This document shows, piece after piece, positions 1 through 63,273 of a stretch of DNA of 64,000 nt (within the stretch, counting starts at the first letter, position 1; every line of letters starts with the position of its first letter). The DNA lies in the NCBI GenBank assembly GCA_964386745.1, contig CAYLSZ010000001.1:9179-73178 (forward strand), written 5' to 3'. The notes under the pieces were generated by a model. The model saw only the letters and a list, made by a program, of their open reading frames with translations, did no database searches and was not told where the DNA came from. Position numbers and translations under genes: made by a program. This DNA is from an uncultured Staphylococcaceae bacterium. GTDB lineage: Bacteria > Bacillota_I > Bacilli_A > RFN20 > CAG-826.

Positions 1-874
1 TGGTAGTTTAGTATCTTTAAACACCGAACTAAAGACAGGTGACGTTGTCGATATCAAGACTTCAAAAACATCTCCTGGACCAAATGAAGGCTGGCTAAAT
101 TTAGTCAAAACAAATGGCGCAAAATCGCATATTCGTCGTTTCTTAATGAAGAAGAATAACGAGGCTATGCGTGATGATAAAATCGCAAAAGGTAAACAAA
201 TTTGTCTCGAATTTTTCAAAGAACGAGGACTCGATGAAAAAGAAATGGAGACTAAAATTAGTTCAGAAAATGTACTAAAAAACTACCATTTTGCTACTTT
301 AGATGACTTATATATCGGTATAAGCAACCATAATCCAAGCCCAGCAGCCATCTGCGATTTTTTAGGTATCAAACGTAAAGAAACTAATACTTTGATATTG
401 TCCAAAAAGAAAACTCGTAGTGCTGATGATAATCCAGTTTACGTTGAAGGAGCAGCTGAAGGGCTACAAATTACATTAGGAAATTGCTGTACACCAATTC
501 CTGGTGATCCTATTGTAGGCTATGTTACAAAAGGAAAAGGAATCACAGTTCATAGAGATACCTGTCCTAACATCAAAGGTGCATCTGATCGTCTTATTAA
601 AGTCTATTGGCACGACGATTTAGGAAATAAAGAATATCCTGTCGATATCGTCATTTCTTGTAATGATAGAAACAATTTATTAACCGATATTTTACAAGTC
701 TTTAATTCACACAAAATTAAATGTACCGAGCTTAGTGCAAAGGTCCACCCAGAAAATATGACGACCACAGTTTTCTGTCAATTTTATATAACTAATGCCA
801 CGGCATTACAGACCATTTTTCAAGCTTTAAAAAACCTCAAAGATGTCTTTGAAATAAAACGTCAAATCCACTAA
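1..874 (+). CDS. relA: C-terminal part of the bifunctional (p)ppGpp synthetase/hydrolase RelA/SpoT (TGS and ACT domains). The 5' end lies upstream of the window.
   Basis: The reading frame is open from base 2. Translation GSLVSLNTELKTGDVVDIKTSKTSPGPNEGWLNLVKTNGAKSHIRRF matches a RelA TGS domain, and the C-terminal part resembles an ACT domain. The track ORF 146..874 is the in-frame tail of this gene. Confidence 0.8.
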   Translation, partial: GSLVSLNTELKTGDVVDIKTSKTSPGPNEGWLNLVKTNGAKSHIRRFLMKKNNEAMRDDKIAKGKQICLEFFKERGLDEKEMETKISSENVLKNYHFATLDDLYIGISNHNPSPAAICDFLGIKRKETNTLILSKKKTRSADDNPVYVEGAAEGLQITLGNCCTPIPGDPIVGYVTKGKGITVHRDTCPNIKGASDRLIKVYWHDDLGNKEYPVDIVISCNDRNNLLTDILQVFNSHKIKCTELSAKVHPENMTTTVFCQFYITNATALQTIFQALKNLKDVFEIKRQIH

Positions 875-8236: not shown

Positions 8237-9424
8237 ATGAGTAGAATTATACTTCACATCGACCTAGACGCTTTCTTTTGTAGAGCTGAAGAAATTAAAA
8301 ATCCTTCTTTGGAGGGAAAGGCTTTTATTGTCGGCGGTGAAGGTAGAAGAGGTATCGTTTCTACTTGCTCATATAAAGCTAGAGAATATGGGATTCATAG
8401 TGGAATGCCTACATTTCAAGCAAAAATGTTATGTAAAAACGTCTTAGTTTTACCAGCAGATTTTCGCTTTTACGATCTGTTATCTAGAGAATTTATAAAC
8501 TATTTAAAACAGTATTCAAACAAGATTCAACAAGCCTCAATTGATGAATGTTTTTTGGATTTTACTGATTATTATAATGCTCATAAAAACATGCCAATGA
8601 CCACATTGTTAAAGAACATCCAACAAGGTTTATTTAAAAAGACGTCTTTAAAATGTTCAATTGGAGTTGGTACTACAAAATTTATCGCGAAGATGGCAAG
8701 TGACTATCAAAAACCAATGGGCATAACAATAATTAGAAATCGCGATATTCATAAAATGCTTTTCCCTTTACCAATTGAAAAATATTTCGGAATTGGAAAG
8801 AAAACATCGGCCAAATTACGTGAAATAAATATCAATACAATCGGCGATTTATATAACGCAATCAAGACTCAAGGAGAAGTCCCTAGTATTCATGGACAAG
8901 ATATTCTCGATGAATTAGATGGCAAAACTTCTAATCAAATTAACGATGAACATATCGATCCTAAATCGATTGGTATGTCGCGAACTTTAGATTCTGATAC
9001 AAATAATGAAACAAGGATTATTGAAGTTTTAAAACACGAAATTCAAATGGTTGTTTCATCAATGGTTGAGCAAAATATGTTTACAAAAACCATTTCAATA
9101 TCGATGAAAGATGCAGCTCATGAGACAAACTTTAAAGCAAAATCATTCTCGTATACATTCGATGAATATACTGATGACTTAGAATTTATCACTAAAGAAG
9201 CAATCGATTTATTTAAACGTTCGTATCGTAACGAAGTTATCCGTTTAATTGGCTTTACCGTGAAAAATATCAAAGAAAAACATGGCGTTGTTAAACAAAT
9301 GACTTTCGAAGACTTCCAAAAACACGAAAAAGAAAATAATTTATATCTTCTAGTAAACGAATTAAACCGCGAATCTCATAAGCAACTTTTTAAGCGTGCT
9401 AGCGACATTTTAAAGGATGAATAA
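8237..9424 (+). CDS. dinB: DNA polymerase IV (Y-family)
   Basis: MSRIILHIDLDAFFCRAEE matches the DinB N-terminus. The track ORF begins 22 codons earlier, inside a repeat copy, so the internal ATG at 8237 is the more likely start. Confidence 0.88.
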   Translation: MSRIILHIDLDAFFCRAEEIKNPSLEGKAFIVGGEGRRGIVSTCSYKAREYGIHSGMPTFQAKMLCKNVLVLPADFRFYDLLSREFINYLKQYSNKIQQASIDECFLDFTDYYNAHKNMPMTTLLKNIQQGLFKKTSLKCSIGVGTTKFIAKMASDYQKPMGITIIRNRDIHKMLFPLPIEKYFGIGKKTSAKLREININTIGDLYNAIKTQGEVPSIHGQDILDELDGKTSNQINDEHIDPKSIGMSRTLDSDTNNETRIIEVLKHEIQMVVSSMVEQNMFTKTISISMKDAAHETNFKAKSFSYTFDEYTDDLEFITKEAIDLFKRSYRNEVIRLIGFTVKNIKEKHGVVKQMTFEDFQKHEKENNLYLLVNELNRESHKQLFKRASDILKDE

Positions 9425-10253
9425 CGTGTTAATTACTGAAGCTATTGATAAATTTATTGAGTCAAAAACCTCAACAGGTCTAGAAGAATCAACTATCGAT
9501 TCTTATAAAGCTGATTTGAGAATATTTTTGAAATATTACCCACGAATCGAGTCGACGGAAGACTTAAATAACAATCTTTTCAACTATTTCATTTTTGACC
9601 AACAATTAGATGAACTTTCGAACGCTACAATCGCTCGTAGAATTGCTGTTTTAAAGGAATTTTTCTTATATTTAGAAGAACAAAATATATGTAAAGATTT
9701 AATAAAAACTATATCGTTGCCAAAAGTTGAAAGGCATCCAATAATCACATTAACAAAAGAAGAAATAGAAGTCTTTTTCAATGTATTTAACGAGAAAAAA
9801 ATAAACGAACTTCGCGATAAACTTTTATTTTCATTAATGTATTATTCAGGGCTAAGACTAAACGAAGCAATTAGCCTCAAAATCGACGATATAAATGCAA
9901 AAGAACAACTAATTTCTATCGAAAATTTTCGCCTTGTTCCAACCTGTACCCAACTAATCGATGTCTATATAAAATATATAGACATGCTCAAAAATAAAGA
10001 ACTTTTTGGTCAAACTGATTATCTATTTTTTAATCTCAAAACCCATAAACCTTTATCAATCGTGGCTATCAATAAAAACTTCAAAAAATATGTATCTCGG
10101 GCAGGCATAAATAAGAATATTACCCCTCATTCCTTACGCGATTCTTTCGCTATTCACCTCCTTCAAAACGGATGCAATATCCACGCATTAAAAGAACTAT
10201 TAGGACATAAAAATCTCAATACTACTTTAGAATATGAGAAATATTTAAAATAG
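9417..10253 (+). CDS. tyrosine site-specific recombinase of the XerC/XerD family
   Basis: 278 aa with an N-terminal SAM-like domain and C-terminal HSLRDSFAIHLL...LGHKNLNTTLEYEKY carrying the R-H-R-Y catalytic residues. Confidence 0.8.
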   Translation: MNNVLITEAIDKFIESKTSTGLEESTIDSYKADLRIFLKYYPRIESTEDLNNNLFNYFIFDQQLDELSNATIARRIAVLKEFFLYLEEQNICKDLIKTISLPKVERHPIITLTKEEIEVFFNVFNEKKINELRDKLLFSLMYYSGLRLNEAISLKIDDINAKEQLISIENFRLVPTCTQLIDVYIKYIDMLKNKELFGQTDYLFFNLKTHKPLSIVAINKNFKKYVSRAGINKNITPHSLRDSFAIHLLQNGCNIHALKELLGHKNLNTTLEYEKYLK

Positions 10254-13383: not shown

Positions 13384-13440
13384 TTTACCCCCCCAACTTT
13401 TATAAATACGAACGTACTTGTAAGTGAGGAGGATAAAATT
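13384..13440 (+). promoter_or_regulatory. conserved upstream element TACCCCCCCAACTTTTATAAATACGAACGTACTTGTAAGTGAGGAGG (copy A of three)
   Basis: Near-identical element upstream of comEA (59289..59340) and of the C39-like gene (38428..38480). It ends in the RBS GGAGG 8 nt before the ATG. Confidence 0.7.
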
Positions 13441-13956
13441 ATGAATTCTCGTAAAGAAATCGTCTATAGGGTTAACTACGATTTACAAGATTCTTTTTTA
13501 GAACATCTAGCTCACGTAAATAAGTTAATCAAACAGACAAACAATGGTGTGCCCGATTTCGAAGTGAAACAGGGTGAAATAGTGATATTTCGACAATATG
13601 ACAATATCTTGAAGAAATATTATGCATCCTATGGATTGAGTTTATCTTTAAGTAATGAGTTTAAGACCTATGCTTTAATTTGTCCGCTCATTATGATCGG
13701 CCCTGGACAGATAAACCACTATGGGATCAATATCGGCAAAATAGAAGAACTACACGCTAGAAATTCATTTATCGGCATTATCGAAAAAATCGGTCCAATC
13801 GATAAAGCAGATATTTTAAATGAAAAAGTCGATGAGCATTTTAAGACAGTCGTAGTCGATAATAATCTAGTAAATAGGGTATTAGTTAACTATCGAGATT
13901 ACTTAGAAAAACTAGCTGAATCTAAGATTTGTGTCAAAGAAGCGGTTGTTTGCTAG
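13441..13956 (+). CDS. hypothetical protein (171 aa) preceded by the shared com-box-like element
   Basis: Clean ORF with a strong RBS. I recognise no family. Confidence 0.6.
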   Translation: MNSRKEIVYRVNYDLQDSFLEHLAHVNKLIKQTNNGVPDFEVKQGEIVIFRQYDNILKKYYASYGLSLSLSNEFKTYALICPLIMIGPGQINHYGINIGKIEELHARNSFIGIIEKIGPIDKADILNEKVDEHFKTVVVDNNLVNRVLVNYRDYLEKLAESKICVKEAVVC

Positions 13957-28719: not shown

Positions 28720-29482
28720 GACACTTTTCGTGGTCATAACAAGTGATTTCTAAATTATTATCGATAGACAATAATATTTCTTTCATCGTAGTAATATAAA
28801 TCTTTTCTATTTCATGAGGTAAATCTAAATAATTATATTCGCGATTTACAATATCGCGTCTAGCATGATGAGGTATATCGCCACTAATATGGATATCATA
28901 GCCTTCATCTTTAGCGATTTGCCATGTATGCCAGCCGCCTCCTCCAACAATTGAAACCTTTTTAATTGTTGGGTTGCCGCAATTTATCAATAAACCATAA
29001 TCAACATTGAGGCGTTCTTTTGCATATTTAGCAAACTCTTCAACATTCATCTCATTTTCTAATTCGCCACCTCTAGCCATTGGATCTCCATCTAAAGGAT
29101 GAATATTTTTTAGGCCTAAAGCCTTTGTTAATGCATCATTCATACCACCTTTTCCTTCATCGAAATTAGTGTGATATGAATAAATTGGTATATCTAAAGC
29201 ATCCATCTTATCCGATAATTCCTTTTTATATGGATTGTATTTAAAAACTTTAGCTTTAGTTCCAAATATAAATGGATGGTGAGTGATAATTAAATCAAAT
29301 CTTTCATTATTTTCAACAAAGAAATGATTATAAACTTGCTCATCGAAATCTAAGCAAAGCAATATTTTACAAGTTTCTTCTTTTAATTTTCCAGTCTGTA
29401 AGCCAACTGGATCATGATATTTCTTCGCAATTGTTTTAGGAAAATTCTTGGAAAGTTGCCTTAATAATTTCTTTGTGTTCAT
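28706..29482 (-). CDS. Nif3-family metal-binding protein (YqfO-like)
   Basis: 258 aa. Synteny with trmK-sigA-dnaG as in B. subtilis yqfO. Confidence 0.82.
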   Translation of the reverse strand: MNTKKLLRQLSKNFPKTIAKKYHDPVGLQTGKLKEETCKILLCLDFDEQVYNHFFVENNERFDLIITHHPFIFGTKAKVFKYNPYKKELSDKMDALDIPIYSYHTNFDEGKGGMNDALTKALGLKNIHPLDGDPMARGGELENEMNVEEFAKYAKERLNVDYGLLINCGNPTIKKVSIVGGGGWHTWQIAKDEGYDIHISGDIPHHARRDIVNREYNYLDLPHEIEKIYITTMKEILLSIDNNLEITCYDHEKCPKVI

Positions 29483-30135
29483 AATGTTTCCTCAATTTGT
29501 TTAATCTCCCTAATTACTTCTTCTCTTCTTGAATCAGGTAATTTTTGTTCTAATAATTTATTTAATCTATCTCGTTCGTTTGACCGATACGTTATAAATT
29601 CGTCGCTCTTATTTTGGGAAAGAATTGGACCAAATTTATAGTCTTTCTCGGTATAGGTTTTCACCCCTTTTTCAAACCTAATAATTTGGTAAAAAATATC
29701 ATCTTCGAATAGACATTTTTCTTCATCAATATAGTAACCTAACCCACAAACATATCTTCTAATCTCGTCGACAAAATTATGCGAATCTATTAAAAAATAT
29801 TGGGGATCTGCAGGGATTTTTTCTAAAAACGAGAGAATTTGTTTAATAAGAGTTGCTCCCATACCGGCTAAAACAGCCACATCATATTCTTTAGGAACAT
29901 CTTTTAAACCATCACTTAAGATGGCGTTAATTCGATTAGTAAAACCCGACTTTTTAATATTAGTTACTAAATTATTATAAGGTCCCTTTTTATTTTCGAC
30001 ACCGAGTAATAAATTTGTTTTGTTTAGCTCGGCTAATCGAATCAATAATAGTCCGTGGTCGCTACCAATATCAGCGACATTGGAGCCATCAGGTACCAAA
30101 TCACATATTAAACTTAATCTTTTACTTAAGTTCAT
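29479..30135 (-). CDS. trmK: tRNA (adenine22-N1)-methyltransferase
   Basis: SAM-binding motif DIGSDHG. YqfN synteny. Confidence 0.82.
   Translation of the reverse strand: MNLSKRLSLICDLVPDGSNVADIGSDHGLLLIRLAELNKTNLLLGVENKKGPYNNLVTNIKKSGFTNRINAILSDGLKDVPKEYDVAVLAGMGATLIKQILSFLEKIPADPQYFLIDSHNFVDEIRRYVCGLGYYIDEEKCLFEDDIFYQIIRFEKGVKTYTEKDYKFGPILSQNKSDEFITYRSNERDRLNKLLEQKLPDSRREEVIREIKQIEETL
29785..29830 (-). repeat. CTGCAG-core repeat, copy 4 (inside trmK, sense)
   Basis: Minus strand reads GAAAAAATCCCTGCAGATCCCCAATATTTTTTAATAG. Confidence 0.8.
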
Positions 30136-37221: not shown

Positions 37222-38424
37222 TTAACCAAAATAATGCAAGTACTGGTTCCTATAATTCTTTATTTTTTCGACATCAAATCCAATATCCAAGATTTTAGAG
37301 AAATTATCTTGCAAATATAGATACATAAAGAAATGGAAAAGCATATAATTGGTGTTTATAAACCCGGTAAATCCTAAATAAATTAAGACAATCGCAATCG
37401 TTATAAACATCAAGAAATACTTCTTAAAATTATGGAATCCTATGAAATTATACGATTCGTTATTTAACTCTCTTAACATTCGTTTAAAAGTATCGATTGG
37501 CGTATCTTTTTGCTTAAATAATGTCTTTTCGATAAGTTCTAGTCGCGCTTTTTTACTTAGCCGCACCCTTTGTTCATATAGCTTGAAGGCAACTAAAATT
37601 AAGAACGTCATTCCGACAAGTAAGATGTTATAAACATCGTTAATTCCAAGGATAAATAAACCAAATACCAATATCATCGCTGACCCAATAAATTTTACTG
37701 GAGTCGTGATAAGCGAATATTTATAGTTAATTAAGTTCTCGTAATAATCGCTGAAATTATTCTTTAATTCAGTGATTCGATCGCTATTAACAACGTTTTT
37801 ATCAAAATTCTTCAAACAATATATAACGACCTTCTGATACAAAAACTCAAATACTACAAAGGCTGTAAATAAAAGGACAGGGATGAGGAAACTATAATCT
37901 GGATCGATAAATAATAAAGCAGTAAATAAGGCAAGAAAACTAATTATTTGTAAAATTATCGATAGAACCATGAATCGCTTTGGATATACTTTGACTTTTT
38001 GAGGTTTAAAATCACTTCCTCTTGCTTCTAAAACCTCTAAAACTTCACCATTCCAAAGCTTGAAAAGATTTTGATGCGAAAGTTTATATATTCCAGTAGC
38101 AGGATCATAAATTTTGACGCTCTTTTTCAAAATCTTTTTAAGGACGACCATATGTAACTGACCATCTTTGCCTTTAAATAGGATAAGCATCGGCGTCTTT
38201 TTCTTATTATTAAATAAGTCATTCTTATCCTGATAGCGATAGGCAAGTAGCGTTACCCCTTCATTTTCAGCAATTTTGATTAACTCACCTAAGGTCACCT
38301 TCCTTTTTATATCCCCGTGAGGATAATAAAGGAAATCCTTGTTCTTGTAAGTCATCGCAAGCAGCATCTTTAATGATGTGATACCACAATCGTTATCACC
38401 GAGCTGTTTAATGTAATATTTCAT
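37222..38424 (-). CDS. membrane protein with an N-terminal papain-like C39 peptidase-like domain and no ABC ATPase domain
   Basis: QLGDNDCGITSLKMLLAMTY matches the C39 catalytic Cys motif, and a His lies downstream (GQLHMVV). Six or more TM helices follow. The likely start is the ATG at 38424 behind RBS GGAGGA; the track start is a GTG 6 codons upstream. Confidence 0.65.
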   Translation of the reverse strand: MKYYIKQLGDNDCGITSLKMLLAMTYKNKDFLYYPHGDIKRKVTLGELIKIAENEGVTLLAYRYQDKNDLFNNKKKTPMLILFKGKDGQLHMVVLKKILKKSVKIYDPATGIYKLSHQNLFKLWNGEVLEVLEARGSDFKPQKVKVYPKRFMVLSIILQIISFLALFTALLFIDPDYSFLIPVLLFTAFVVFEFLYQKVVIYCLKNFDKNVVNSDRITELKNNFSDYYENLINYKYSLITTPVKFIGSAMILVFGLFILGINDVYNILLVGMTFLILVAFKLYEQRVRLSKKARLELIEKTLFKQKDTPIDTFKRMLRELNNESYNFIGFHNFKKYFLMFITIAIVLIYLGFTGFINTNYMLFHFFMYLYLQDNFSKILDIGFDVEKIKNYRNQYLHYFG

Positions 38425-38427
38425 GGA

Positions 38428-38480
38428 AAATTCCTCCTTCACTTACAAGTACGTTTGAATTTGGAACTTTTTGCAAAAAA
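38428..38480 (-). promoter_or_regulatory. conserved upstream element (copy C): ...AAAGTTCCAAATTCAAACGTACTTGTAAGTGAAGGAGG
   Basis: Shares the core AAACGTACTTGTAAGTGA(A)GGAGG with the elements at 13384..13440 and 59289..59340. Confidence 0.7.
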
Positions 38481-38502
38481 AATGCGATTTTAATAAATCG
38501 CA
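38472..38502 (-). terminator. rho-independent terminator of rpsU
   Basis: On the minus strand, hairpin TGCGATTT-ATTA-AAATCGCA followed by TTTTTTTT. Confidence 0.65.
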
Positions 38503-39700: not shown

Positions 39701-40987
39701 TTATTCGATGATTGCGTTATTTTTTGTGTATTTATGAGTGACAATTTGGCCTTTTATATCTTTGTCGGACTTTATAAAAGTGCACAAATAGTTTGATGAA
39801 TGAGCTTTATATCCACCAAGTTTTTTATCGTAAGATTCGACTAAAAATTCGATTTCTTGATCATAAAAGTGCGAGATATATTCTTCTTCTAATTTTGTCG
39901 ATAGTTCGAGTAATTTATGGACTCTTTCTTTTTTAACTTTTTCGTCAACCTTTGGATAAATTTGACTTGCTTTTGTCCCTTTTCTATCGCTATAAGGGAA
40001 AACATGTACTTTAGAAAATTGTATATTCTTTATAAACTCGTAAGTCTTTAAAAATTCCTCATCGGTCTCGGTTGGATAGCCTACAATTACGTCAGTTGTG
40101 ATAGCTATGTTTTTACGAATTCGTCTAAGATCTGCAGCGTTTTTTTCAAAATTAGCCAGTTTATACTTACGGTTCATGTCCTTTAAAACCTTCTCTGAAC
40201 CGCTTTGTAAAGGGATATGAAGATGGTTAGCAATGTTAGGATATTTTTTTAATAGATATATAAATTTCTCATCTATTTGACTCTCTTCAATCGAGGAAAT
40301 ACGGATGCGATATAGCTCAGGAAAAGCGACTAAAATCTTCTCTAATAAATCTGAAAAAGTTATATCTTCTTTTAAATCTTTACCATAACTTCCTTGATCA
40401 ATTCCGGTTAAAACAATTTCTTTATAACCGTTATCGATTAAGTCTTTAATCTCTTTTAAAATTTCTTCACTATCACGACTTCTTGAGCGACCGCGAATGT
40501 AAGGAATTAAACAATACGAACAAAAATTATTGCACCCATCTTGAATCTTTACAAACGCTCTAGTTCTATCAAAATATTTCTTAATAGCGATATTTTCATA
40601 GTCTTTTATTTCTTTAAAAGTATCGACTAATACAATGTTTTTCTTGTTTTCGATATAATTTTCGACTAATTCAATAACATCGTCTCTATGGCTTGTCCCT
40701 AAAACGATATTTGCCCCATTATTAGCAAAGTATTCACCATCATTTTGTGAGGCGCAACCCATAACAAGGATAATTGCGTTCTCATAATTTTTTCTATATC
40801 TACGAAAAATTTTCTTAGATTTTGTGGAGCTCGTTTCAGTGACTGCGCACGTATTTAAAACGATTAAATCGACATCTTTTTCACCTTTTTTGGCTTCAAA
40901 AAACCCGTGTTCTATAAGCTTTTCATTGATAGCTATCGACTCGTAGCTATTTACTTTACATCCTAAAAAATCGCAGATAAATTTCAT
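39701..40987 (-). CDS. mtaB: radical-SAM methylthiotransferase of the MiaB/RimO family, probably MtaB (YqeV)
   Basis: MTTase N-terminal domain, CxxxCxxC (CNNFCSYC) and a TRAM domain. Synteny with rsmE and dnaJ. Confidence 0.82.
   Translation of the reverse strand: MKFICDFLGCKVNSYESIAINEKLIEHGFFEAKKGEKDVDLIVLNTCAVTETSSTKSKKIFRRYRKNYENAIILVMGCASQNDGEYFANNGANIVLGTSHRDDVIELVENYIENKKNIVLVDTFKEIKDYENIAIKKYFDRTRAFVKIQDGCNNFCSYCLIPYIRGRSRSRDSEEILKEIKDLIDNGYKEIVLTGIDQGSYGKDLKEDITFSDLLEKILVAFPELYRIRISSIEESQIDEKFIYLLKKYPNIANHLHIPLQSGSEKVLKDMNRKYKLANFEKNAADLRRIRKNIAITTDVIVGYPTETDEEFLKTYEFIKNIQFSKVHVFPYSDRKGTKASQIYPKVDEKVKKERVHKLLELSTKLEEEYISHFYDQEIEFLVESYDKKLGGYKAHSSNYLCTFIKSDKDIKGQIVTHKYTKNNAIIE
40120..40172 (-). 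repeat. CTGCAG-core repeat, copy 7 (inside mtaB, sense)
   Basis: Minus strand reads GAAAAAAACGCTGCAGATCTTAGACGAATTCGTAAAAAC. Confidence 0.75.
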
Positions 40988-41379
40988 TATTTTACAAATC
41001 TATAAAGTAGTTTTTGATATAAACAATAGCTAATCGCGCCGTTTTTATATAAACAATTTATAAAATCCATACGGTCAGCTTTATAATACATCTCTAAAAT
41101 ATTGCGCGATTTATCTTCTAGATAATCGCTATCAAAAAATTTAAGTTTTCTATCGTATAAATAAATTAAAGTATCGATATACCCATCGTTATTTATAACG
41201 ACGATGACGTGAGTATGTAAATTTATATAGCCTTTACTTGTCGCATCTTCTCCTAGATAGACAAGATTATGAAAACGCTCAACTTTACGCCCGTTTTTGG
41301 CTAATTTATGATACGAGTCGTTAAAACGTTGGTTGTTATTACGATATTTATATAAAATTTTTAAAATCGATGTTTCCAT
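40987..41379 (-). CDS. hypothetical protein (130 aa)
   Basis: ORF is translationally coupled between mtaB and rsmE. I recognise no family. Confidence 0.5.
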   Translation of the reverse strand: METSILKILYKYRNNNQRFNDSYHKLAKNGRKVERFHNLVYLGEDATSKGYINLHTHVIVVINNDGYIDTLIYLYDRKLKFFDSDYLEDKSRNILEMYYKADRMDFINCLYKNGAISYCLYQKLLYRFVK

Positions 41380-56716: not shown

Positions 56717-58738
56717 TTAAGCCAAAAATTTATAAGTGATTGAACCTTCTAAGTCAGTTCTTCGATAAGTTATTCCAAGTTGATTTAATCGACTGATTAC
56801 ATCTTCACTTGGGTGACCATATCGATTGTTTAAACCACAAGAGATTATAGCTACTTCTGGATTGATATATTGCAAGAATGCCAGTGAGGAACTTGAACTA
56901 CTTCCATGATGGCCAAGCTTTAAATAATCGACATCCAAGGTATAGTTATTAATAATCTCTTCCTCAACAGTTGTGGTTGCATCACCCATAAATAAGAACG
57001 AATTATCAGCTACACTCAAATGTAAAACTAGACTTCGATCATTTTCATCTTGCGACGTGTCATAAATATAAGGATTTAAATTTTCAAAAGTTAAATTCCC
57101 ACTTACATAAGGGAACACAGAATTATAATCAACTATATTCTTTACCTTAAAATTCTCAGTTAGACTTTCTAGTGCACCGTAGTGGTCATAGTCATAATGG
57201 GTGATAAATACTGCCTCTAAAGAATAGATTCGATTACTTTTTAAAAACGGGATAAGCGAGTTAGTCGCAAGGTCATAACTTGTAAGTCCTCCAGTATCTA
57301 TAAGATACGCTTTGTTTCTATATCTAATTAATGTGCTATCTCCTTGCCCGACATTGATATAAGTTACTTGGAAGGTAAACGTATTCTCTATCGGTAAGAT
57401 ATAAATTCCAAGTAACAATATAGCTGAAAGTGCGACATTTTTGGAGATAAACAAAATTCGAAATTCGTGAAAATAAACGAAGATCTGCAGGGTTAAATAG
57501 TAAAAACAAAGGAAAAATGGATTTAACGCTGGAATGTTTATTGTAAAGATTGAGAAGTCAATCGCATCTAAAACTTTATAAAATCCAACAAATATCGCGT
57601 TAGTAAACGGAAGTTTAATTCCATAAAATCCTACGAAGCAAAATACGAATATAATTTTGAATAAAAACGTAAATGTATAAGAGAATAACATATTCAAAAT
57701 ATTGAATCCGTTATAAACACTTATAGTATAGGGAAGGAAAGTTGTGGCTATCAAAACCCTTCTTTTAACTGCCTGAATATATCTATTCCCTCGATTGAGC
57801 ATTGCCTTAGAAAATTGCATCACTATCATTACAAGTAAAGGTAAGAAGAAACTTGCTCGATAGACCAATGATGAACTAACTAATAGCAATATAAAGTAAA
57901 CTAAACACTTAAAGTTAAACTTATCTTCATAGGCGATTTTCCTATAAAAGATAATGTTTAGCGTAAAGAATAAAAAGACTCTAATGAATGTAAAACGGTA
58001 GATATTAAATATAAAAAACGGCGTGCATAGTAATAGAGAAAAGATTCGTGCGTGCTTTGTATCTAGAAAGTAGCCAAATAATTTAGCAATACCATAAAGA
58101 ATAAAATTTAAAAATAAACCGGTACTAGAAAATAGATGTGCAATCATTAGCTTATCGCTAATCGAAGAAACGCTATCAGTTTCCCCTAAAATCATGGCAT
58201 TAAATATTGCAAGTGCTTCTTCACTCGTAAATATCTTATTTACACTAGTCAAATTGGCTTCAAAATTTAGAGGGAAGTCCCACAAGACCTCTATATTGCT
58301 AGCCGTTATTATCCTGAACACGTTCTGATTATTAAGGTAATTTTGATAATCGAAGCTACTTTCATAGCTCGAAAATGATAATTCGCTCAATGTTCCTTCA
58401 ATTCTAACGACATCAAATAGTTTTAATTCCGTCGTGTAACAATAAATCTTTTCAGTAAGTGTTCGGATAATAACGTAGCTACTTCCCTTTTTAATAACTA
58501 TTCCCGTTATCGAAGCATATTGGATTAAGGATAAAATTTTGGGTAAAAATCTTAAAAATACGCCTAAACAAAAGATTGATATGACTATTACACTGCCCTT
58601 TGCATTTATATTTTTGGTTTTAACTAATCGAATTATTAGCAATACAAGTAGCGCTAATCCTATTACTATGTAGTCGAGTTTAGTAATAATTAGGCCGGCA
58701 ATTAACGCTAAAAGTAAAGCAAAATAATCTCTCATCAA
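56717..58738 (-). CDS. comEC: competence DNA-uptake channel protein ComEC
   Basis: 673 aa polytopic protein with a C-terminal metallo-beta-lactamase domain (HYDYDHYG, LKLGHHGS). Confidence 0.85.
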   Translation of the reverse strand: MMRDYFALLLALIAGLIITKLDYIVIGLALLVLLIIRLVKTKNINAKGSVIVISIFCLGVFLRFLPKILSLIQYASITGIVIKKGSSYVIIRTLTEKIYCYTTELKLFDVVRIEGTLSELSFSSYESSFDYQNYLNNQNVFRIITASNIEVLWDFPLNFEANLTSVNKIFTSEEALAIFNAMILGETDSVSSISDKLMIAHLFSSTGLFLNFILYGIAKLFGYFLDTKHARIFSLLLCTPFFIFNIYRFTFIRVFLFFTLNIIFYRKIAYEDKFNFKCLVYFILLLVSSSLVYRASFFLPLLVMIVMQFSKAMLNRGNRYIQAVKRRVLIATTFLPYTISVYNGFNILNMLFSYTFTFLFKIIFVFCFVGFYGIKLPFTNAIFVGFYKVLDAIDFSIFTINIPALNPFFLCFYYLTLQIFVYFHEFRILFISKNVALSAILLLGIYILPIENTFTFQVTYINVGQGDSTLIRYRNKAYLIDTGGLTSYDLATNSLIPFLKSNRIYSLEAVFITHYDYDHYGALESLTENFKVKNIVDYNSVFPYVSGNLTFENLNPYIYDTSQDENDRSLVLHLSVADNSFLFMGDATTTVEEEIINNYTLDVDYLKLGHHGSSSSSSLAFLQYINPEVAIISCGLNNRYGHPSEDVISRLNQLGITYRRTDLEGSITYKFLA
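57462..57510 (-). repeat. CTGCAG-core repeat, copy 12 (inside comEC, sense)
   Basis: Minus strand reads TTTGTTTTTACTATTTAACCCTGCAGATCTTCGTTTATTTTCACG. Confidence 0.75.
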
Positions 58739-59283
58739 TCAGTTAAGATAATATAGTTTCTTAATTTCGTATAAGTTGCGTTACCAATTCCGCTTACATT
58801 CATGACGTCTTCTAAAGTTTGATATAAGCCGTTTTCGTTACGATAAGAAATAATGCTTGAACTAATCGAATCACCAATGCCATCGATAAAAGTAAGTTCG
58901 CTAGCATCGGTATAAGAGTTGATATTTACTTTTGTAATTTCTTCAGTCGAACAAATATCAGTTGGATCATATCTTGGTGGGATATAATAGGTCATATTTT
59001 TTTCGACTGTAGCAGTTGGAAAATAAGCTCTTGTATCGGCTCTATCAGTAATACCACCAGCTTTATCGATTAAATCTTGCATCGTCGAGCCTTCTTCAAG
59101 CAAATAGTTTCCTGAACTTACAACGTATCCTGATATTCCTATCGAGTTACGCGTAATTTCGTCTTCTGTTGCTACGACTGTGGCTGCCGTAGTAACATTT
59201 GTAAAGTCGAATACTTGCATGATTAAAAGTCCGACAATCGTCACGATAACAACGCCTAAAATTATCTTTAAAGTTAAAGTCAT
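58735..59283 (-). CDS. comEA: competence DNA-binding protein ComEA
   Basis: N-terminal TM anchor, SLBB-like middle region and C-terminal helix-hairpin-helix (NVSGIGNATYTKL). Translationally coupled to comEC. Confidence 0.8.
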   Translation of the reverse strand: MTLTLKIILGVVIVTIVGLLIMQVFDFTNVTTAATVVATEDEITRNSIGISGYVVSSGNYLLEEGSTMQDLIDKAGGITDRADTRAYFPTATVEKNMTYYIPPRYDPTDICSTEEITKVNINSYTDASELTFIDGIGDSISSSIISYRNENGLYQTLEDVMNVSGIGNATYTKLRNYIILTD

Positions 59284-59288
59284 CGTTC

Positions 59289-59340
59289 ACACCTCCTTTC
59301 ACCTACAAGTACGTTTGATAATTGAAAAGTTTGGGGGTAC
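59289..59340 (-). promoter_or_regulatory. conserved upstream element (copy B): GTACCCCCAAACTTTTCAATTATCAAACGTACTTGTAGGTGAAAGGAGG
   Basis: Matches the elements at 13384..13440 and 38428..38480. Lies between the greA terminator and the comEA RBS. Confidence 0.7.
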
Positions 59341-60258: not shown

Positions 60259-60673
60259 TAATTCTCCTTATATACCTATTTAATATAATAATCGCGCTAA
60301 ACATATCTATAAGCTCGTCGATTTTAGCCTTTTTCATACCCATATTTTCCATCATTTCTTTAGCTTCGATAGTCGAATATCTTTCATCTTCATAGATAGC
60401 TTCTAAATCAGGTTTTTCTTTTTGGATATCTTCTATAAAACGCTTAACCGATTTACATCTAGTTTCTTCTTTATCGGCTAAAGTTAAGGGGTATCCTATA
60501 ACTACTTTATTGATCTTTTCTTTTTCGAGTAAAGCAAGTAAATGTTCACGGGCTTTTTTATAGTTACCTCTTTCGAAATTAAAGTTTTCTTTGCCATGGA
60601 CTATACCAAGTTCATCGCTAAGCGAAATACCTAAAGTAGTCGTTCCTAAATCGAGTCCAAGATATCTTTCCAC
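60245..60673 (-). CDS. ruvX: Holliday-junction-resolvase-like pre-16S rRNA nuclease YqgF/RuvX
   Basis: N-terminus LGLDLGTTTLGISLSD (RNase H-like). Confidence 0.85.
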   Translation of the reverse strand: MERYLGLDLGTTTLGISLSDELGIVHGKENFNFERGNYKKAREHLLALLEKEKINKVVIGYPLTLADKEETRCKSVKRFIEDIQKEKPDLEAIYEDERYSTIEAKEMMENMGMKKAKIDELIDMFSAIIILNRYIRRINDGK

Positions 60674-63273
60674 TATAATAATTCCTTAATGACGTCGACG
60701 ATTAAATCTTTTTCGTTGACAATTGACCCTTGAGCGATGTCAGCTCTTCCGCCTCCATTTCCACCGTATCTTGTAGTGATAGTTTTTAGTAACTCATTAG
60801 CCTTAATACCACGTTCTAATTGGTATTTTCCACAAGCTACCATAAGTGACTTTTTACCCTCTTTTTCACCGACAAATATAATACAGTAATTATCCAAATT
60901 GTTCTTAACTTCATCTAAAATGAACATGACATCGTTGCGATCCATATCAGTAAATTTATGAAGTAAGACCTTATGAGCAGCAATTTCGATAAACTCTGTT
61001 TTTAAAGTTTTAGCCAGGTTCTGCAGGGTTTTTTGTTTATATTCTTCGATTTTTTTATTTAAGACTTTGTTAATATCGAAAAGTTCCATAACTTTCTTTT
61101 GAACGTCTAAGAAGTTTGGAGCGTTAACTAAAGCCTTAACTTTTAATAACGCTTTTTCTCTTTCCTTTAAATATCTATAAGCTTCAATTCCAGTTAAAGC
61201 AGTGATTCTTCTAACGCCACTAGAAATCGATTCTTCGCTATGAATTACGAATAATCCGATCTCTGAAGAATTTAAAACGTGAGAGCCTCCACAAAATTCT
61301 GTTGACACTTTTCCAAAGGAAACGACACGGACAATTTGGCCATATTTTTCACCAAATTCAGCAATTGCTCCAAGCTTCAAAGCTTCCTTAATTGGGAGCT
61401 CTTGAGTAACTCTAGGAATAGCCAATTGAATAAATTCGTTAACTTTTTCTTCAATCGTTTCAATCTCTTCTAAAGTTAATTTTCTATCAAAATTGAAGTC
61501 GAATCTAAGATATTTATCGCAAACAAAACTACCTTTTTGACGGACTTCTTCACCTAAAACTTCCATCAAAGCACTTTGTAATAAGTGAGTTGCTGAATGG
61601 TTTTTAATTATATCATTATGACGAATTTGATCGACTTTTAAAGTGAATTTATCGCCTATTTTTATCGTTCCTTTTTCAACTTTTACGTGATGTAAATGTT
61701 GTTTATTAGGAGCGCTAGAAACATCTAAAACTTGCGCGATAGTTCTCTTATTTTCGATAGTTCCAGCATCAGCAACTTGCCCACCTTTTTCAGCATAGAA
61801 ATTAGTAGTATCGAAAGCGACTTCTCCTTCATCTTCAATTACATCGACTTTGACACCATTTTTGAAAGTTCCTATAACTTTTGCGCTAATTTCTTTTGCA
61901 TCGTTTATATAGATAGATTCATCCTTAAAATTAAGTAAATCTTCAGATTGCTTGTTAAATGATTGTTGAACCTTTCTTGAATTACGAGCTTGTTCTTTTT
62001 GTTTTTCAAGAAGTTTATTGAATCCTTGCATATCGACTTCAATATTTAAGTCTTCACAGATTTCTCTAGTAAGCTCTATTGGGAATCCATATGAATCATA
62101 GAGTAAAAATGCGTCTTTTTCACTTAACTTTTTGGCTCTACTAACAATTTCGTGTAAGACTTTTTCGCCGACAACTAAAGTTTTGATAAATTTTTCTTCT
62201 TCGGATTTAATCTTTTTCTCAATCATTCCTTTTTTATCGACTAAATAAGGATAAAATCCCTTCATTACATCGATAACAGTTCCGACAAGTTTATATAAAA
62301 ATGGTTCATTGAGATTAATTTTTTGGCCATAGCGCATAGCTCTACGTAAAAGTCTACGTAAAACGTATCCTCTTCCCTCATTAGAAAAATCGGCGCCATC
62401 TGCTAAAGCAAAAGTACATGTTCTAATATGATCAGCAATAACTCTATAAGGCATTAAATTTTTGCCCTCATAAGGAGCTTTTGATAATTTTTCGGTTTCC
62501 TTAATAATAGGCATAAATAAATCGGTTTCGAAATTAGTATCAGCACCTTGAAGGATGCTTGCAATTCTTTCTAAACCTGCGCCAGTATCGATGTTTTTAT
62601 GTGGTAATTCTTTATAATTTGCCCTATTGACACCTTCTTCAGCGTTATATTGAGAGAAAACTATACCCCAAATTTCGATATAACGATCATTATCGATTTC
62701 TTCTTCTAATAATTTTAAGCCAAGTTTTTCAGGGTCATATTTTTCGCCACGATCATAAAAAACTTCGGTATTTGGACCACATGGACCCGAACCTATTTCC
62801 CAGAAATTTCCTTCTAATGGGATAAGATGATCTTTAGGAAGACCAACTTTTTGCCATAATTCATAGGTTTCTTTATCATCTGGATGATAGGTTGCATATA
62901 ATTTTGTAACGTCTAAACCAAAATATTTTTCACTCGTTAAAATTTCATAAGCCCGTGGGATAACTTCTTTTCTAAAATAATCACCAATCGAAAAATTGCC
63001 GAGCATTTCAAAAAAAGTATGATGACGAGCCGTTTTTCCGACGTTACTTATATCATTAGTACGAATACATTTTTGAACATTAACTATACGTTTACATTCA
63101 GGAACTTCACTTCCATCAAAATATTTCTTTAAAGAGCTAACTCCAGCGTTGATCCAAAGTAAAGTTGGATCATCGTGAGGGATTAAACTCGCTCCTTCTT
63201 CGATATGGTGTCCGCGTTCATGAAAAAAGTTTAACCATGTTTTGCGTATTTCTTGACTAGAAAGTTTTTTCAT
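60673..63273 (-). CDS. alaS: alanyl-tRNA synthetase
   Basis: 866 aa with class II motifs, an editing domain (HSATHLL...CGGSH) and a C-terminal DHHA1 domain. Confidence 0.95.
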   Translation of the reverse strand: MKKLSSQEIRKTWLNFFHERGHHIEEGASLIPHDDPTLLWINAGVSSLKKYFDGSEVPECKRIVNVQKCIRTNDISNVGKTARHHTFFEMLGNFSIGDYFRKEVIPRAYEILTSEKYFGLDVTKLYATYHPDDKETYELWQKVGLPKDHLIPLEGNFWEIGSGPCGPNTEVFYDRGEKYDPEKLGLKLLEEEIDNDRYIEIWGIVFSQYNAEEGVNRANYKELPHKNIDTGAGLERIASILQGADTNFETDLFMPIIKETEKLSKAPYEGKNLMPYRVIADHIRTCTFALADGADFSNEGRGYVLRRLLRRAMRYGQKINLNEPFLYKLVGTVIDVMKGFYPYLVDKKGMIEKKIKSEEEKFIKTLVVGEKVLHEIVSRAKKLSEKDAFLLYDSYGFPIELTREICEDLNIEVDMQGFNKLLEKQKEQARNSRKVQQSFNKQSEDLLNFKDESIYINDAKEISAKVIGTFKNGVKVDVIEDEGEVAFDTTNFYAEKGGQVADAGTIENKRTIAQVLDVSSAPNKQHLHHVKVEKGTIKIGDKFTLKVDQIRHNDIIKNHSATHLLQSALMEVLGEEVRQKGSFVCDKYLRFDFNFDRKLTLEEIETIEEKVNEFIQLAIPRVTQELPIKEALKLGAIAEFGEKYGQIVRVVSFGKVSTEFCGGSHVLNSSEIGLFVIHSEESISSGVRRITALTGIEAYRYLKEREKALLKVKALVNAPNFLDVQKKVMELFDINKVLNKKIEEYKQKTLQNLAKTLKTEFIEIAAHKVLLHKFTDMDRNDVMFILDEVKNNLDNYCIIFVGEKEGKKSLMVACGKYQLERGIKANELLKTITTRYGGNGGGRADIAQGSIVNEKDLIVDVIKELL
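61000..61045 (-). repeat. CTGCAG-core repeat, copy 13 (inside alaS, sense)
   Basis: Minus strand reads ACAAAAAACCCTGCAGAACCTGGCTAAAACTTTAAAAAC. Confidence 0.8.

What the first reader, a model, noticed from the sequence alone, without database searches (positions are those of the whole stretch)
37222..38424. C39 peptidase-like domain fused to a polytopic membrane domain with no ABC ATPase, under the shared com-box-like element
The N-terminal ~130 aa carry the C39 bacteriocin-processing peptidase signature (Q-x4-DCG-x-TSL-x-M-x6-Y, then a His), followed by 6 to 8 TM helices and no nucleotide-binding domain. In streptococci the C39 domain of ComA processes the competence pheromone. Here the C39-containing gene is one of the three genes carrying the comEA-type upstream element, and it has its own terminator-separated promoter. 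It replaces phoH/yqfF in the otherwise conserved ybeY neighbourhood.
Basis: partly seen in the sequence, partly recalled or inferred. Interest (0 to 1): 0.6.

Follow-up and report, generated by a model that had tools for sequence, protein, structure and literature searches.

The report
ATPase-less peptide-cutting transporter tied to DNA uptake
This gene encodes a peptide-cutting ABC exporter that has lost its ATP motor; it is conserved in a group of uncultured small-genome gut bacteria and appears to be switched on together with their DNA-uptake genes and, in relatives, with a small membrane peptide that is its likely target.

Summary
Window 37222-38424 (-) encodes a 400-aa protein with an intact C39 peptidase domain (Pfam E=4e-16; Gln7/Cys13/His91/Asp107 invariant). 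Six long membrane helices follow, and the predicted fold matches the membrane domain of PCAT1. The protein stops right after helix 6, and ybeY starts 30 bp later, so there is no ATPase. It is not a wreck: at least 253 sequence clusters share the ~400-aa layout. The position rpsU>C39>ybeY>cdd>era>recO is kept in six divergent loci from uncultured Bacilli (Ca. Onthovivens relatives).

The upstream element is real, with AACGTACTTGTA exact three times in 64 kb. In four lineages the element's sequence differs, yet each lineage's C39 gene and comEA-comEC carry the same version. That argues for co-regulation.

In one relative lineage the same element also precedes a conserved 60-aa gene. Its leader (L-T-E-x-E-L-x-x-I-x-V-G|E) fits the double-glycine register and is followed by a membrane helix, making it a candidate substrate.

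The best reading is an ATP-independent, membrane-anchored leader peptidase of the DNA-uptake regulon. The ComA-like pheromone analogy is not supported. The peptide was not found in the window, and synteny places it about 10 kb beyond the left edge. I rate this a new variant of a known kind.

The parts
37222..38424 (-). Gene for the 400-aa C39 peptidase plus six-helix membrane protein with no ATPase domain (stop codon included)
   Evidence: ORF and sequence. Pfam Peptidase_C39 E=4e-16. 13 homologues of 398-401 aa. 253 cluster representatives at E<1e-30, nearly all 386-422 aa.
38023..38424 (-). C39 peptidase domain (aa 1-134). Gln7 codon 38404-38406, Cys13 38386-38388, His91 38152-38154, Asp107 38104-38106.
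   Evidence: Q7, C13, H91 and D107 are invariant. AF2 gives an alpha/beta domain over residues 1-134. Foldseek matches the ComA peptidase domain 5xe8/3k8u, LahT150 6mpz and the PCAT1 peptidase domain 7n87.
37225..37983 (-). Membrane domain (aa 148-400): six long helices in three hairpins with an ABC-exporter-like predicted fold, ending at the C-terminus straight after helix 6
   Evidence: AF2 helices and hydropathy. The HMMER profile aligns query 5-295 to PCAT1 16-343. Foldseek gives full-length matches to PCAT1 (E 3e-11 to 1e-8) and membrane-domain-only matches to PrtD, TAP and HlyB (E 0.015-0.05). No Pfam ABC_membrane hit in 13 of 13 members. A membrane-domain-only profile finds nothing in PDB.
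38439..38455 (-). Shared cis-element AACGTACTTGTAAGTGA, directly upstream of the SD (38433-38437) of the C39 gene
   Evidence: No sigma-70-like promoter in the 58 nt between terminator and start codon. No significant RNA structure. No Rfam family.
38483..38502 (-). Intrinsic-terminator-like hairpin plus T-run after rpsU, separating the C39 gene from the rpsU transcript
   Evidence: The same hairpin-then-element layout occurs in relatives.
59299..59315 (-). Second copy of the element (AACGTACTTGTAGGTGA), before comEA
   Evidence: No sigma-70-like promoter here.
56717..59283 (-). comEA (58735-59283) and comEC (56717-58738): DNA receptor and DNA channel, the operon that shares the element
   Evidence: Pfam SLBB+HHH_3 for ComEA and Lactamase_B for ComEC. 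ComEC homologues carry PF03772 Competence and are named ComEC/Rec2.
13411..13427 (+). Third copy of the element (AACGTACTTGTAAGTGA). Like the comEA copy, it has the C-rich box TACCCCC..AACTTTT upstream.
13441..13956 (+). 171-aa ORF of unknown function, the third gene under the element in this genome
   Evidence: No Pfam, NCBIfam or PDB match. The AF2 single-sequence model is unusable (pLDDT 44.5).

Best explanation
The gene encodes a membrane-anchored double-glycine-type leader peptidase that descends from a peptidase-containing ABC transporter (PCAT) and has lost the ATPase.

Shown:
- The C39 domain is catalytically complete (Gln, Cys, His, Asp).
- Six PCAT-like membrane helices follow, and the protein ends there.
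- This ~400-aa layout is a large family, inherited at a fixed locus (rpsU > C39 > ybeY) in uncultured small-genome Bacilli.
- The gene has its own control region, whose sequence tracks that of comEA-comEC lineage by lineage.

Inferred:
- One regulator turns on DNA-uptake genes and this peptidase together.
- On the cytoplasmic face, the C39 domain removes the N-terminal leader of a small co-regulated peptide.
- In relatives that peptide is a conserved 60-aa protein: a 17-aa leader L-T-E-x-E-L-x-x-I-x-V-G, then Glu, a 22-residue hydrophobic helix and a K-L-P-G-G-W-x-F-T-W tail.
- The ATPase-less membrane domain holds the cargo and releases it into or across the membrane without ATP.
- Such release is plausible because the mature product is itself a membrane helix that needs insertion rather than full export.
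- In this window's genome the peptide gene has not been seen. Synteny predicts it lies about 10 kb left of the window.
For: Peptidase:
- Pfam C39 E=4e-16.
- Q7, C13, H91 and D107 are invariant across 35-50% identity.
- The fold matches ComA, LahT150 and PCAT1 peptidase domains.

Membrane domain and absence of ATPase:
-.
- No ABC ATPase gene neighbours the C39 gene in any of six divergent loci.

Real family:
- 1019 profile hits, 253 at E<1e-30, and the top 150 are nearly all 386-422 aa matched end to end.
- Members are annotated only as 'C39 domain-containing protein' from Ca. Onthovivens, Bacilli and Erysipelotrichaceae MAGs.
- Synteny holds down to the rank-150 member.

Co-regulation:
- Three exact copies of the element in 64 kb.
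- In an unbiased scan, the 70 nt upstream of each lineage's comEA finds its best match in that lineage's 12-64 kb C39 locus at a copy of the element. In the three relatives this is exactly upstream of the C39 gene.
- Scores against the best background were 42 vs 17, 29 vs 17 and 18 vs 15 in the three relatives.
- In the window, apart from the self-match, the best hits are the 171-aa ORF copy (25.5) and the C39 copy (23), against a background of 14.
- The element sequence itself differs between lineages.

Candidate substrate:
- A metagenome scan with the relative's element found it only before comEA and before a 60-aa ORF.
- 27 nt (AATTCCCTCCCATTACCTAGTGAAAGG) are identical upstream of that ORF and of the C39 gene.
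- The peptide family has 11 clusters, all 60 aa, with L6, E10, I14, V16, G17 and E18 invariant.
- This is the register of double-glycine leaders at positions -12, -8, -7, -4 and -1. From memory, the pediocin PA-1 leader reads KLTEKEMANIIGG.
- None of 458 control small ORFs had the leader pattern.
- The peptide gene's upstream region in two further lineages carries lineage-appropriate variants of the element.
- The peptide, a C39 member and a ComEC member all report a longest contig of 181,674 bp, suggesting one shared contig.
Against: - No expression or biochemical data exist. Everything is comparative sequence analysis.
- The peptide gene was not found in the window. The source genome could not be retrieved, so the substrate link is shown only for lineages about 39% identical to the window protein.
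- Position -2 of the putative cleavage site is Val, not Gly. Gly at -2 is normally near-essential for C39 peptidases (my knowledge).
- The peptide matches no bacteriocin or leader profile.
- The membrane domain's relation to ABC exporters rests on a predicted structure (pLDDT 77.6) and a weak sequence alignment. Pfam ABC_membrane and a membrane-domain-only profile find nothing.
- The C39 copy of the element in the window lacks the C-rich box shared by the other two copies.
- In the Onthovivens lineage the comEA/C39 resemblance is weak (18 vs 15).
- The regulator is unknown, and only comEA-comEC link the element to 'competence'.
- A separately encoded ATPase elsewhere in the genome cannot be excluded.
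Confidence: 0.55

Rival explanations
1. ComA-like pheromone maturation. The C39 domain cuts the leader from a secreted competence pheromone, which then induces competence as ComAB and ComC do in streptococci.
For: The C39 domain resembles the ComA peptidase domain. The gene shares a control element with comEA. A co-regulated peptide with a GG-type leader exists in relatives. Its invariant aromatic C-terminus (GGWQFTWK) loosely recalls Trp-rich XIP-type pheromones (my knowledge).
Against: - There is no ATPase and no ComB-like partner, so ComA-type active export is impossible.
- The candidate peptide carries a 22-residue membrane helix.
- The peptide stays 65-100% identical across lineages whose promoter element has diverged. 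Pheromones usually do the opposite.
- The gene shares the promoter of the uptake machinery itself, not of an early sensor circuit.
- No histidine kinase, response regulator or Rgg gene is adjacent.
Confidence: 0.12
2. Competence-linked fratricide. The peptidase matures a membrane-active bacteriocin that lyses neighbours to release DNA, like the ComX-controlled CibAB of pneumococcus.
For: It is co-regulated with DNA-uptake genes. The candidate substrate is a small hydrophobic, cationic peptide with a GG-type leader. Pneumococcal competence regulons include GG-leader bacteriocins (PMC5295010 and PMC6016807, listed).
Against: - The peptide gene sits alone between valS and rplU, with no immunity gene and no strain variability. 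It is conserved like a housekeeping component.
- Release of a toxin to the outside would normally need the ATPase.
Confidence: 0.13
3. Split ABC transporter. The protein is an ordinary PCAT whose nucleotide-binding domain is encoded by a separate gene elsewhere, so transport is still ATP-driven.
For: - The helices extend well beyond the membrane, as in ABC exporters.
- The few invariant residues of the membrane domain across 25 diverse members map to the cytoplasmic loops where ATPases dock: D208, K235 and E299.
Against: - No ABC ATPase gene lies next to the gene in six loci spanning the family.
- The cytoplasmic loops are tight turns of 2-5 residues in the model, without coupling helices.
- Split half-transporters are normally encoded side by side (my knowledge).
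Confidence: 0.15
4. Decayed remnant. The gene is a truncated PCAT pseudogene with no function, and the promoter similarity is coincidental.
For: Truncated PCAT genes occur in other bacteria (my knowledge).
Against: - At least 253 clusters keep the same length.
- The catalytic residues are invariant.
- The locus is fixed down to very distant members.
- The promoter element co-varies in four lineages.
Confidence: 0.03

Closest known systems
Peptidase-containing ABC transporters (PCAT1 of Clostridium thermocellum, PDB 4RY2/6V9Z; ComA, LagD, BlpA)
   Same: - N-terminal C39 peptidase with the Gln/Cys/His/Asp set.
- Six long membrane helices in the same order.
- PCAT1 is the best sequence and fold match over the whole length.
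- A GG-type leader on the candidate cargo.
   Different: - There is no nucleotide-binding domain; the protein ends after helix 6.
- The membrane domain is about 250 aa and escapes Pfam ABC_membrane.
- The gene is at a housekeeping locus, not in a bacteriocin or pheromone cluster.
- The candidate cargo is encoded elsewhere and has Val-Gly instead of Gly-Gly.
Stand-alone double-glycine peptidases (LahT150, PDB 6MPZ; excised ComA peptidase domain, 3K8U/5XE8)
   Same: ATP-independent C39 leader peptidase activity. The fold matches with TM-scores of 0.72-0.81 normalised to the target.
   Different: Those are soluble fragments or soluble proteins. This one is naturally fused to a conserved six-helix membrane domain.
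C39-like domains of type 1 secretion ABC transporters (HlyB)
   Same: N-terminal papain-like domain on an ABC-exporter-type membrane domain. HlyB appears among the fold matches.
   Different: HlyB's domain lacks the catalytic Cys and only binds substrate, and HlyB has an ATPase. Here Cys13 is invariant and the ATPase is missing.
AgrB of staphylococci (functional analogy only)
   Same: A polytopic membrane cysteine peptidase without an ATPase that matures a small peptide precursor at the membrane (my knowledge).
   Different: There is no sequence or fold relationship. AgrB cuts the C-terminus and makes a thiolactone pheromone.
Streptococcal competence regulon with its com-box, and the ComX-controlled GG-leader peptides CibAB
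   Same: A short conserved element just upstream of DNA-uptake genes is shared with a peptide-processing function and a GG-type peptide.
   Different: - The element sequence is different and lineage-specific (AACGTACTTGTA here versus TACGAATA).
- The regulator is unknown.
- The peptidase gene itself, not an early-gene transporter, carries the element.

Membership tests
Peptidase family C39 (Pfam PF03412) | Profile match above the curated threshold | tested here: met
   59.5 bits against a cutoff of 22, residues 3-131. All 13 aligned members match.
Peptidase family C39 (Pfam PF03412) | Catalytic Cys and His (plus Asp) and the oxyanion-hole Gln in register | tested here: met
   Q7, C13, H91 and D107 are invariant. 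The spacings Q-x5-C and H-x15-D match ComA (my knowledge). The profile alignment to PCAT1 puts the DCG motif in register.
Peptidase-containing ABC transporter (PCAT) | C-terminal nucleotide-binding domain (Walker A/B, ABC signature) | tested here: not met
   No ABC_tran hit at E<=10. The protein ends at residue 400, straight after helix 6, and ybeY follows 30 nt later. All family members are about 400 aa.
Peptidase-containing ABC transporter (PCAT) | Six-helix ABC-exporter membrane domain | tested here: inconclusive
Peptidase-containing ABC transporter (PCAT) | Cognate double-glycine-leader substrate gene | tested here: inconclusive
   None in the 64-kb window. A co-regulated 60-aa gene with a GG-type leader register, but Val-Gly at the cut site, exists in relatives at a distant locus.
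C39-like (inactive) domain of type 1 secretion transporters | Catalytic Cys replaced, domain non-proteolytic | tested here: not met
   Cys13 is invariant.
Streptococcal ComAB pheromone exporter | ATP-driven export with a ComB partner and an adjacent or dedicated comC-type pheromone gene | tested here: not met
   There is no ATPase. The neighbours are rpsU and ybeY in all loci. No pheromone-like gene lies in the window.
Streptococcal com-box (cin-box) late competence promoter | TACGAATA -10 element recognised by ComX | tested here: not met
   The shared core is AACGTACTTGTA. Only one of the three copies happens to read TACGAAC just upstream. The sigma factor could not be tested.
DNA-uptake (competence) regulon of this clade, defined here by the shared element | Same lineage-specific cis-element as comEA-comEC | tested here: met
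   Seen in the window and three other lineages. Co-expression itself is not testable with these tools.

The most novel reading that the evidence does not exclude
The family is not a leftover transporter but a new kind of ATP-independent 'cut-and-insert' machine. Its C39 domain trims a leader, and its ABC-type membrane domain, working without any ATPase, inserts a conserved pilin-like mini-protein into the membrane. That mini-protein has a leader, then a hydrophobic helix, then a short aromatic tail. In these reduced-genome Bacilli it would be a structural part of the DNA-uptake apparatus. The route would parallel prepilin-peptidase-dependent pseudopilins.
Probability: 0.18. Interest if true: 0.85.

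Novelty: new variant of a known kind. Interest (0 to 1): 0.64.

Why it matters
PCATs are a textbook case of proteolysis coupled to ATP-driven export. A large, vertically inherited family that keeps the peptidase and the membrane domain but has no ATPase would raise two questions. What can an ABC-type membrane domain do without its motor: gated release, membrane insertion or scaffolding? And how is cleavage then coupled to release?

The gene is also wired to comEA-comEC in uncultured gut and digester Bacilli with genomes of about 1 Mb. That would add a new component, and a candidate small peptide partner, to DNA uptake in a clade where nothing is known experimentally.

The promoter co-variation also gives a handle for defining that clade's DNA-uptake regulon from metagenomes alone.

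Tried and rejected
- A genome-contig scan with the window element plus SD returned one hit, in a Saccharibacteria MAG, taken as chance. The source genome is not in that collection, so its regulon could not be listed.
- An exact look-up of the window protein's contig found nothing on record.
- A strict and a relaxed double-glycine leader scan of all small ORFs in the window, plus tblastn with the 60-aa peptide, found nothing.
- The 171-aa ORF gave no hit in Pfam, NCBIfam or PDB sequence searches. Its AF2 single-sequence model had pLDDT 44.5 and was discarded. No homologue exists in the fetched loci.
- A membrane-domain-only profile (25 diverse members) found nothing in PDB, and Pfam ABC_membrane matched no member.
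- The element as an RNA motif is rejected: no Rfam family in the window and no significant folding of the three leaders (z = -1.4, +0.5, -1.4).
- The element as a standard sigma-70 promoter is rejected: none predicted at any of the three copies.
- The element as a generic feature of many genes is rejected: only three sites in 64 kb and one per 12-21 kb relative locus.
- Four keyword literature searches found no description of an ATPase-less C39-membrane family. The library covers open-access papers only.
Full report
**1. What is at the coordinates**

The ORF runs from the ATG at 38424 to the TAA at 37222-37224 on the minus strand and encodes 400 aa. A GGAGG Shine-Dalgarno sits 8 nt upstream of the ATG. 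The longer GTG start at 38442 lies inside the upstream element. All homologues begin at the same Met, so the ATG is the start.

Pfam Peptidase_C39 matches residues 3-131 (E=4.1e-16, 59.5 bits, cutoff 22). The best NCBIfam hit covers only the N-terminal 167 positions of a mycoplasma peptidase-ABC transporter model. Neither library reports an ATPase or any other domain.

**2. The peptidase is intact**

In an alignment of the window protein with 12 homologues at 35-50% identity, Gln7, Cys13, His91 and Asp107 are invariant. This is the oxyanion Gln plus the Cys/His/Asp set of double-glycine peptidases. The spacing is the one I know from ComA and PCAT1. The profile-to-PCAT1 alignment puts the DCG motif in register.

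An AlphaFold2 model built on this alignment (mean pLDDT 77.6, pTM 0.67) gives an alpha/beta domain for residues 1-134. Foldseek matches that domain to the ComA peptidase domain (5xe8, 3k8u), LahT150 (6mpz) and the PCAT1 peptidase domain (7n87).

**3. The membrane part**

The model has six long helices (149-171, 180-212, 215-258, 265-304, 310-353, 358-399). They pair into three hydrophobic hairpins, so the count is six, not 6-8.

Evidence that the domain is PCAT-like:
- The family profile aligns with PCAT1 (4ry2) from residue 16 to 343, through the peptidase and into transmembrane helices 1-4 (E=3e-8).
- Foldseek's top 13 hits are full-length PCAT1 chains (E 3e-11 to 5e-8). Lower in the list are membrane-domain-only matches to PrtD, TAP and HlyB (E 0.015-0.05).

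Evidence that it is highly diverged:
- No family member hits Pfam ABC_membrane.
- A profile of the membrane part alone, built from 25 diverse members, finds nothing in PDB.

I therefore call the membrane domain PCAT-like by predicted fold, not by sequence family. In the model the cytoplasmic turns between helices 2/3 and 4/5 are only 2-5 residues long, without the coupling helices that contact an ATPase. This inference rests on a predicted structure.

**4. No ATPase**

The protein ends directly after helix 6, and ybeY starts 30 nt downstream. Six loci from across the family show the same order: rpsU, C39 gene, ybeY, cdd, era, recO, glyQS, dnaG. None has an ABC ATPase gene nearby. A trans-encoded ATPase elsewhere in the genome cannot be excluded.

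**5. It is a family, not an accident**

The word-index search found 14 clusters, all 398-401 aa. The exhaustive profile search found 1019 proteins at E<=1e-3 and 253 at E<=1e-30. The best 150 are nearly all 386-422 aa and match end to end.

Source names are only 'cysteine peptidase family C39 domain-containing protein' or 'hypothetical'. They come from MAGs labelled Candidatus Onthovivens, Bacilli bacterium and Erysipelotrichaceae bacterium. Ca. Onthovivens is placed in Bacilli by NCBI.

The rank-150 member still sits between rpsU and ybeY. One relative lies on a 1.03-Mb contig, which fits small genomes. Conservation of length, catalytic residues and locus rules out a pseudogene.

**6. The upstream element**

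AACGTACTTGTA occurs exactly three times in 64 kb. With up to one mismatch, 0.36 matches are expected, and 1 of 100 shuffles reached three. The 17-mer AACGTACTTGTARGTGA occurs only at 13411-13427 (+), 38439-38455 (-) and 59299-59315 (-). The next-best sites carry four mismatches and lie inside genes.

Each copy abuts an SD and a start codon:
- a 171-aa ORF of unknown function;
- the C39 gene;
- comEA (SLBB+HHH_3), followed by comEC.

The comEA and 171-aa copies also share a C-rich box (TACCCCC..AACTTTT) about 15 nt upstream. The C39 copy has GCAAAAAGTT there instead.

No sigma-70-type promoter is predicted at any copy. The C39 copy lies in the 58 nt between the rpsU terminator hairpin (38483-38502) and the start codon. 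No Rfam family matches anywhere in the window, and the three leaders do not fold better than shuffles. A DNA-level promoter or operator for an unknown regulator is the simplest reading. It is not the streptococcal TACGAATA box.

**7. Co-variation across lineages is the strongest regulatory evidence**

I fetched comEA-comEC loci from three relatives that also carry the C39 gene.

| Lineage | C39 locus | comEA locus | What is shared upstream |
|---|---|---|---|
| P0014 (35% identity) | L005 | L009 | About 60 nt, including TTAGAGCGTTCTTGTATATAA(A)GGAGG |
| P0008 (39%) | L003 | L010 | CCCATTAMCTAGTGAAAGG |
| Onthovivens (50%) | L006 | L008 | A C-rich box and ACTTGTATA, with different spacing |

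In an unbiased scan, the 70 nt upstream of comEA were aligned against every 90-nt window of the same lineage's C39 locus, on both strands. In the three relatives the best match was always the C39 upstream region. Scores against the best background were 42 vs 17, 29 vs 17 and 18 vs 15.

In the window itself, apart from the self-match, the best matches were the 171-aa ORF copy (25.5) and the C39 copy (23), against a background of 14.

The element has therefore drifted between lineages but stays matched within each genome (alignments). CTTGTA is invariant in seven sequences from three lineages. This pattern is what one regulon would produce. The Onthovivens case is weak.

**8. A candidate substrate**

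A scan of JGI metagenome contigs with the P0008-lineage element gave four hits:
- one GC-rich chance hit;
- the comEA site;
- two contigs where the element directly precedes a 60-aa ORF between valS and rplU.

Upstream of that ORF and of the C39 gene, 27 nt are identical (AATTCCCTCCCATTACCTAGTGAAAGG).

The ORF reads MNRVALTDSELDNIRVGEAITIAAVMAVMVIAITAVCVYRLFMSKSSTIKLPGGWQFTWK. Eleven clusters of homologues are all 60 aa long, with L6, E10, I14, V16, G17, E18 and the PGGW.FTW tail invariant.

Counted back from Gly17, the residues are Leu(-12), Thr(-11), Glu(-8), Leu(-7), Ile(-4), Val(-2) and Gly(-1). This is the register of double-glycine leaders. From memory, the pediocin PA-1 leader reads KLTEKEMANIIGG. 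The one difference is Val instead of Gly at -2. None of 458 control small ORFs showed the pattern.

Two more peptide loci carry lineage-appropriate element variants. L016 reads AATTCCCCCCCTATTAATAGTGAAGGGAGG. L015 reads TTCTCCACGACATTATTAATGAAAGGAGG, which resembles the C39 upstream of the P0013 lineage, TTCCTCACGATATTAAATATAGGAGG.

The peptide, a C39 family member and a ComEC member all report a longest contig of 181,674 bp, which suggests they lie on one contig.

The mature product would be 43 aa: Glu, a 22-residue hydrophobic helix, then a Lys/Ser/Trp-rich tail. It matches no known family.

**9. What could not be shown for the window genome**

No such peptide gene is in the 64 kb. The source genome is absent from the searchable genome collection and from the contig index.

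The window begins inside relA: ORF 146-874 is the RelA C-terminus. In the relatives the peptide gene lies about 8.5 kb upstream of relA, in the order valS-peptide-rplU-prp-rpmA-obg-ruvAB-x-recJ-relA. If synteny holds, the gene sits just outside the window on the same 78-kb contig.

The third element-bearing gene in the window, the 171-aa ORF, remains uncharacterised.

**10. Mechanism proposed**

Shown: an intact C39 peptidase fused to a six-helix membrane domain, no ATPase, a conserved family at a fixed locus, and a cis-element that co-varies with comEA-comEC and, in relatives, with a GG-type-leader peptide gene.

Inferred: a single regulator induces the DNA-uptake genes, the peptidase and the peptide together. 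The cytoplasmic C39 domain binds the amphipathic leader and cuts after Val-Gly. The PCAT-like membrane domain holds the cargo and lets its hydrophobic helix leave into the bilayer, or cross it, without ATP.

The cargo's strong conservation argues for a machinery component rather than a pheromone or a bacteriocin. So do its housekeeping locus and the lack of an immunity gene. Those rivals are not excluded. A trans-acting ATPase also remains possible, because the few invariant residues of the membrane domain (D208, K235, E299) lie in cytoplasmic loops.

**11. Comparison with known systems**

The protein works most like the peptidase half of a PCAT. It fails PCAT membership on the defining ATPase. 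It is an active C39 peptidase, not an HlyB-type inactive domain. It is not ComA, because it has no ATPase, no ComB and no pheromone gene.

AgrB is a functional analogue only. Four keyword searches of the open-access literature found no description of an ATPase-less C39-membrane family or of its link to comEA-comEC.

**12. Verdict**

This is a new variant of a known kind: a PCAT-derived, ATPase-less leader peptidase family wired to the DNA-uptake genes of an uncultured Bacilli clade. A plausible but unproven small-peptide substrate has been identified in relatives. Interest is 0.64.

Noticed in passing
window 13441-13956 (+), element at 13411-13427: A 171-aa ORF with no detectable family carries the fullest version of the comEA-type element (C-rich box plus core). 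It is a third member of the putative regulon and its function is unknown.
   Followed up: partly
L011 1411-1593 (-), L019 10001-10183 (+), L015 and L016 4001-4183 (+): A conserved 60-aa gene between valS and rplU in relatives. It has a double-glycine-type leader ending Val-Gly, a membrane helix and an invariant PGGW.FTW tail, and is preceded by the same element as the C39 gene and comEA.
   Followed up: yes
window 1-874, compared with L018-L027: The window starts inside relA. In relatives the 60-aa peptide gene lies about 8.5 kb upstream of relA, so the window genome's copy, if any, should lie just beyond the left edge.
   Followed up: partly
window, whole: CGG codons at C39 residue 288 (37561-37563), in 29479-30135, in 9417-10253 and in 60673-63273: CGG is almost unused (4 of 20,364 codons, against 219 CGT and 359 AGA). 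At the two CGG positions with alignable orthologues, the orthologues have L/Y/L/L/I and Y/K/L/Y rather than Arg. This may fit the CGG Arg-to-Trp reassignment reported for Onthovivens (PMC13092985). If so, residue 288 of the C39 protein is Trp, not Arg.
   Followed up: partly
window 40987-41379 (-): This 130-aa ORF without a family lies between rsmE and the MiaB-like gene. The gene at the same position in relatives is about 252 aa, also with no family (L001 6649-7407). The window copy may be shortened or mis-started.
   Followed up: no
L005 18146-19264 (+): In the P0014 lineage a second sigma-70-family gene (372 aa, regions 2-4) follows sigA directly. The window has trmK there instead. This could be a lineage-specific regulator.
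   Followed up: no
window 56717-58738 (-): The window ComEC hits only Lactamase_B in Pfam, while many homologues also hit the Competence domain PF03772. The channel domain is unusually diverged here.
   Followed up: no
window 1-64000: No tRNA gene and no Rfam family reach threshold in 64 kb, even though several aminoacyl-tRNA synthetase genes (hisS, aspS, glyQS, alaS) would often carry T-box leaders in Firmicutes.
   Followed up: no
L018-L023 14258-16999 (+): A conserved 913-aa protein with no Pfam hit lies between ruvB and recJ in the P0008 lineage.
   Followed up: no
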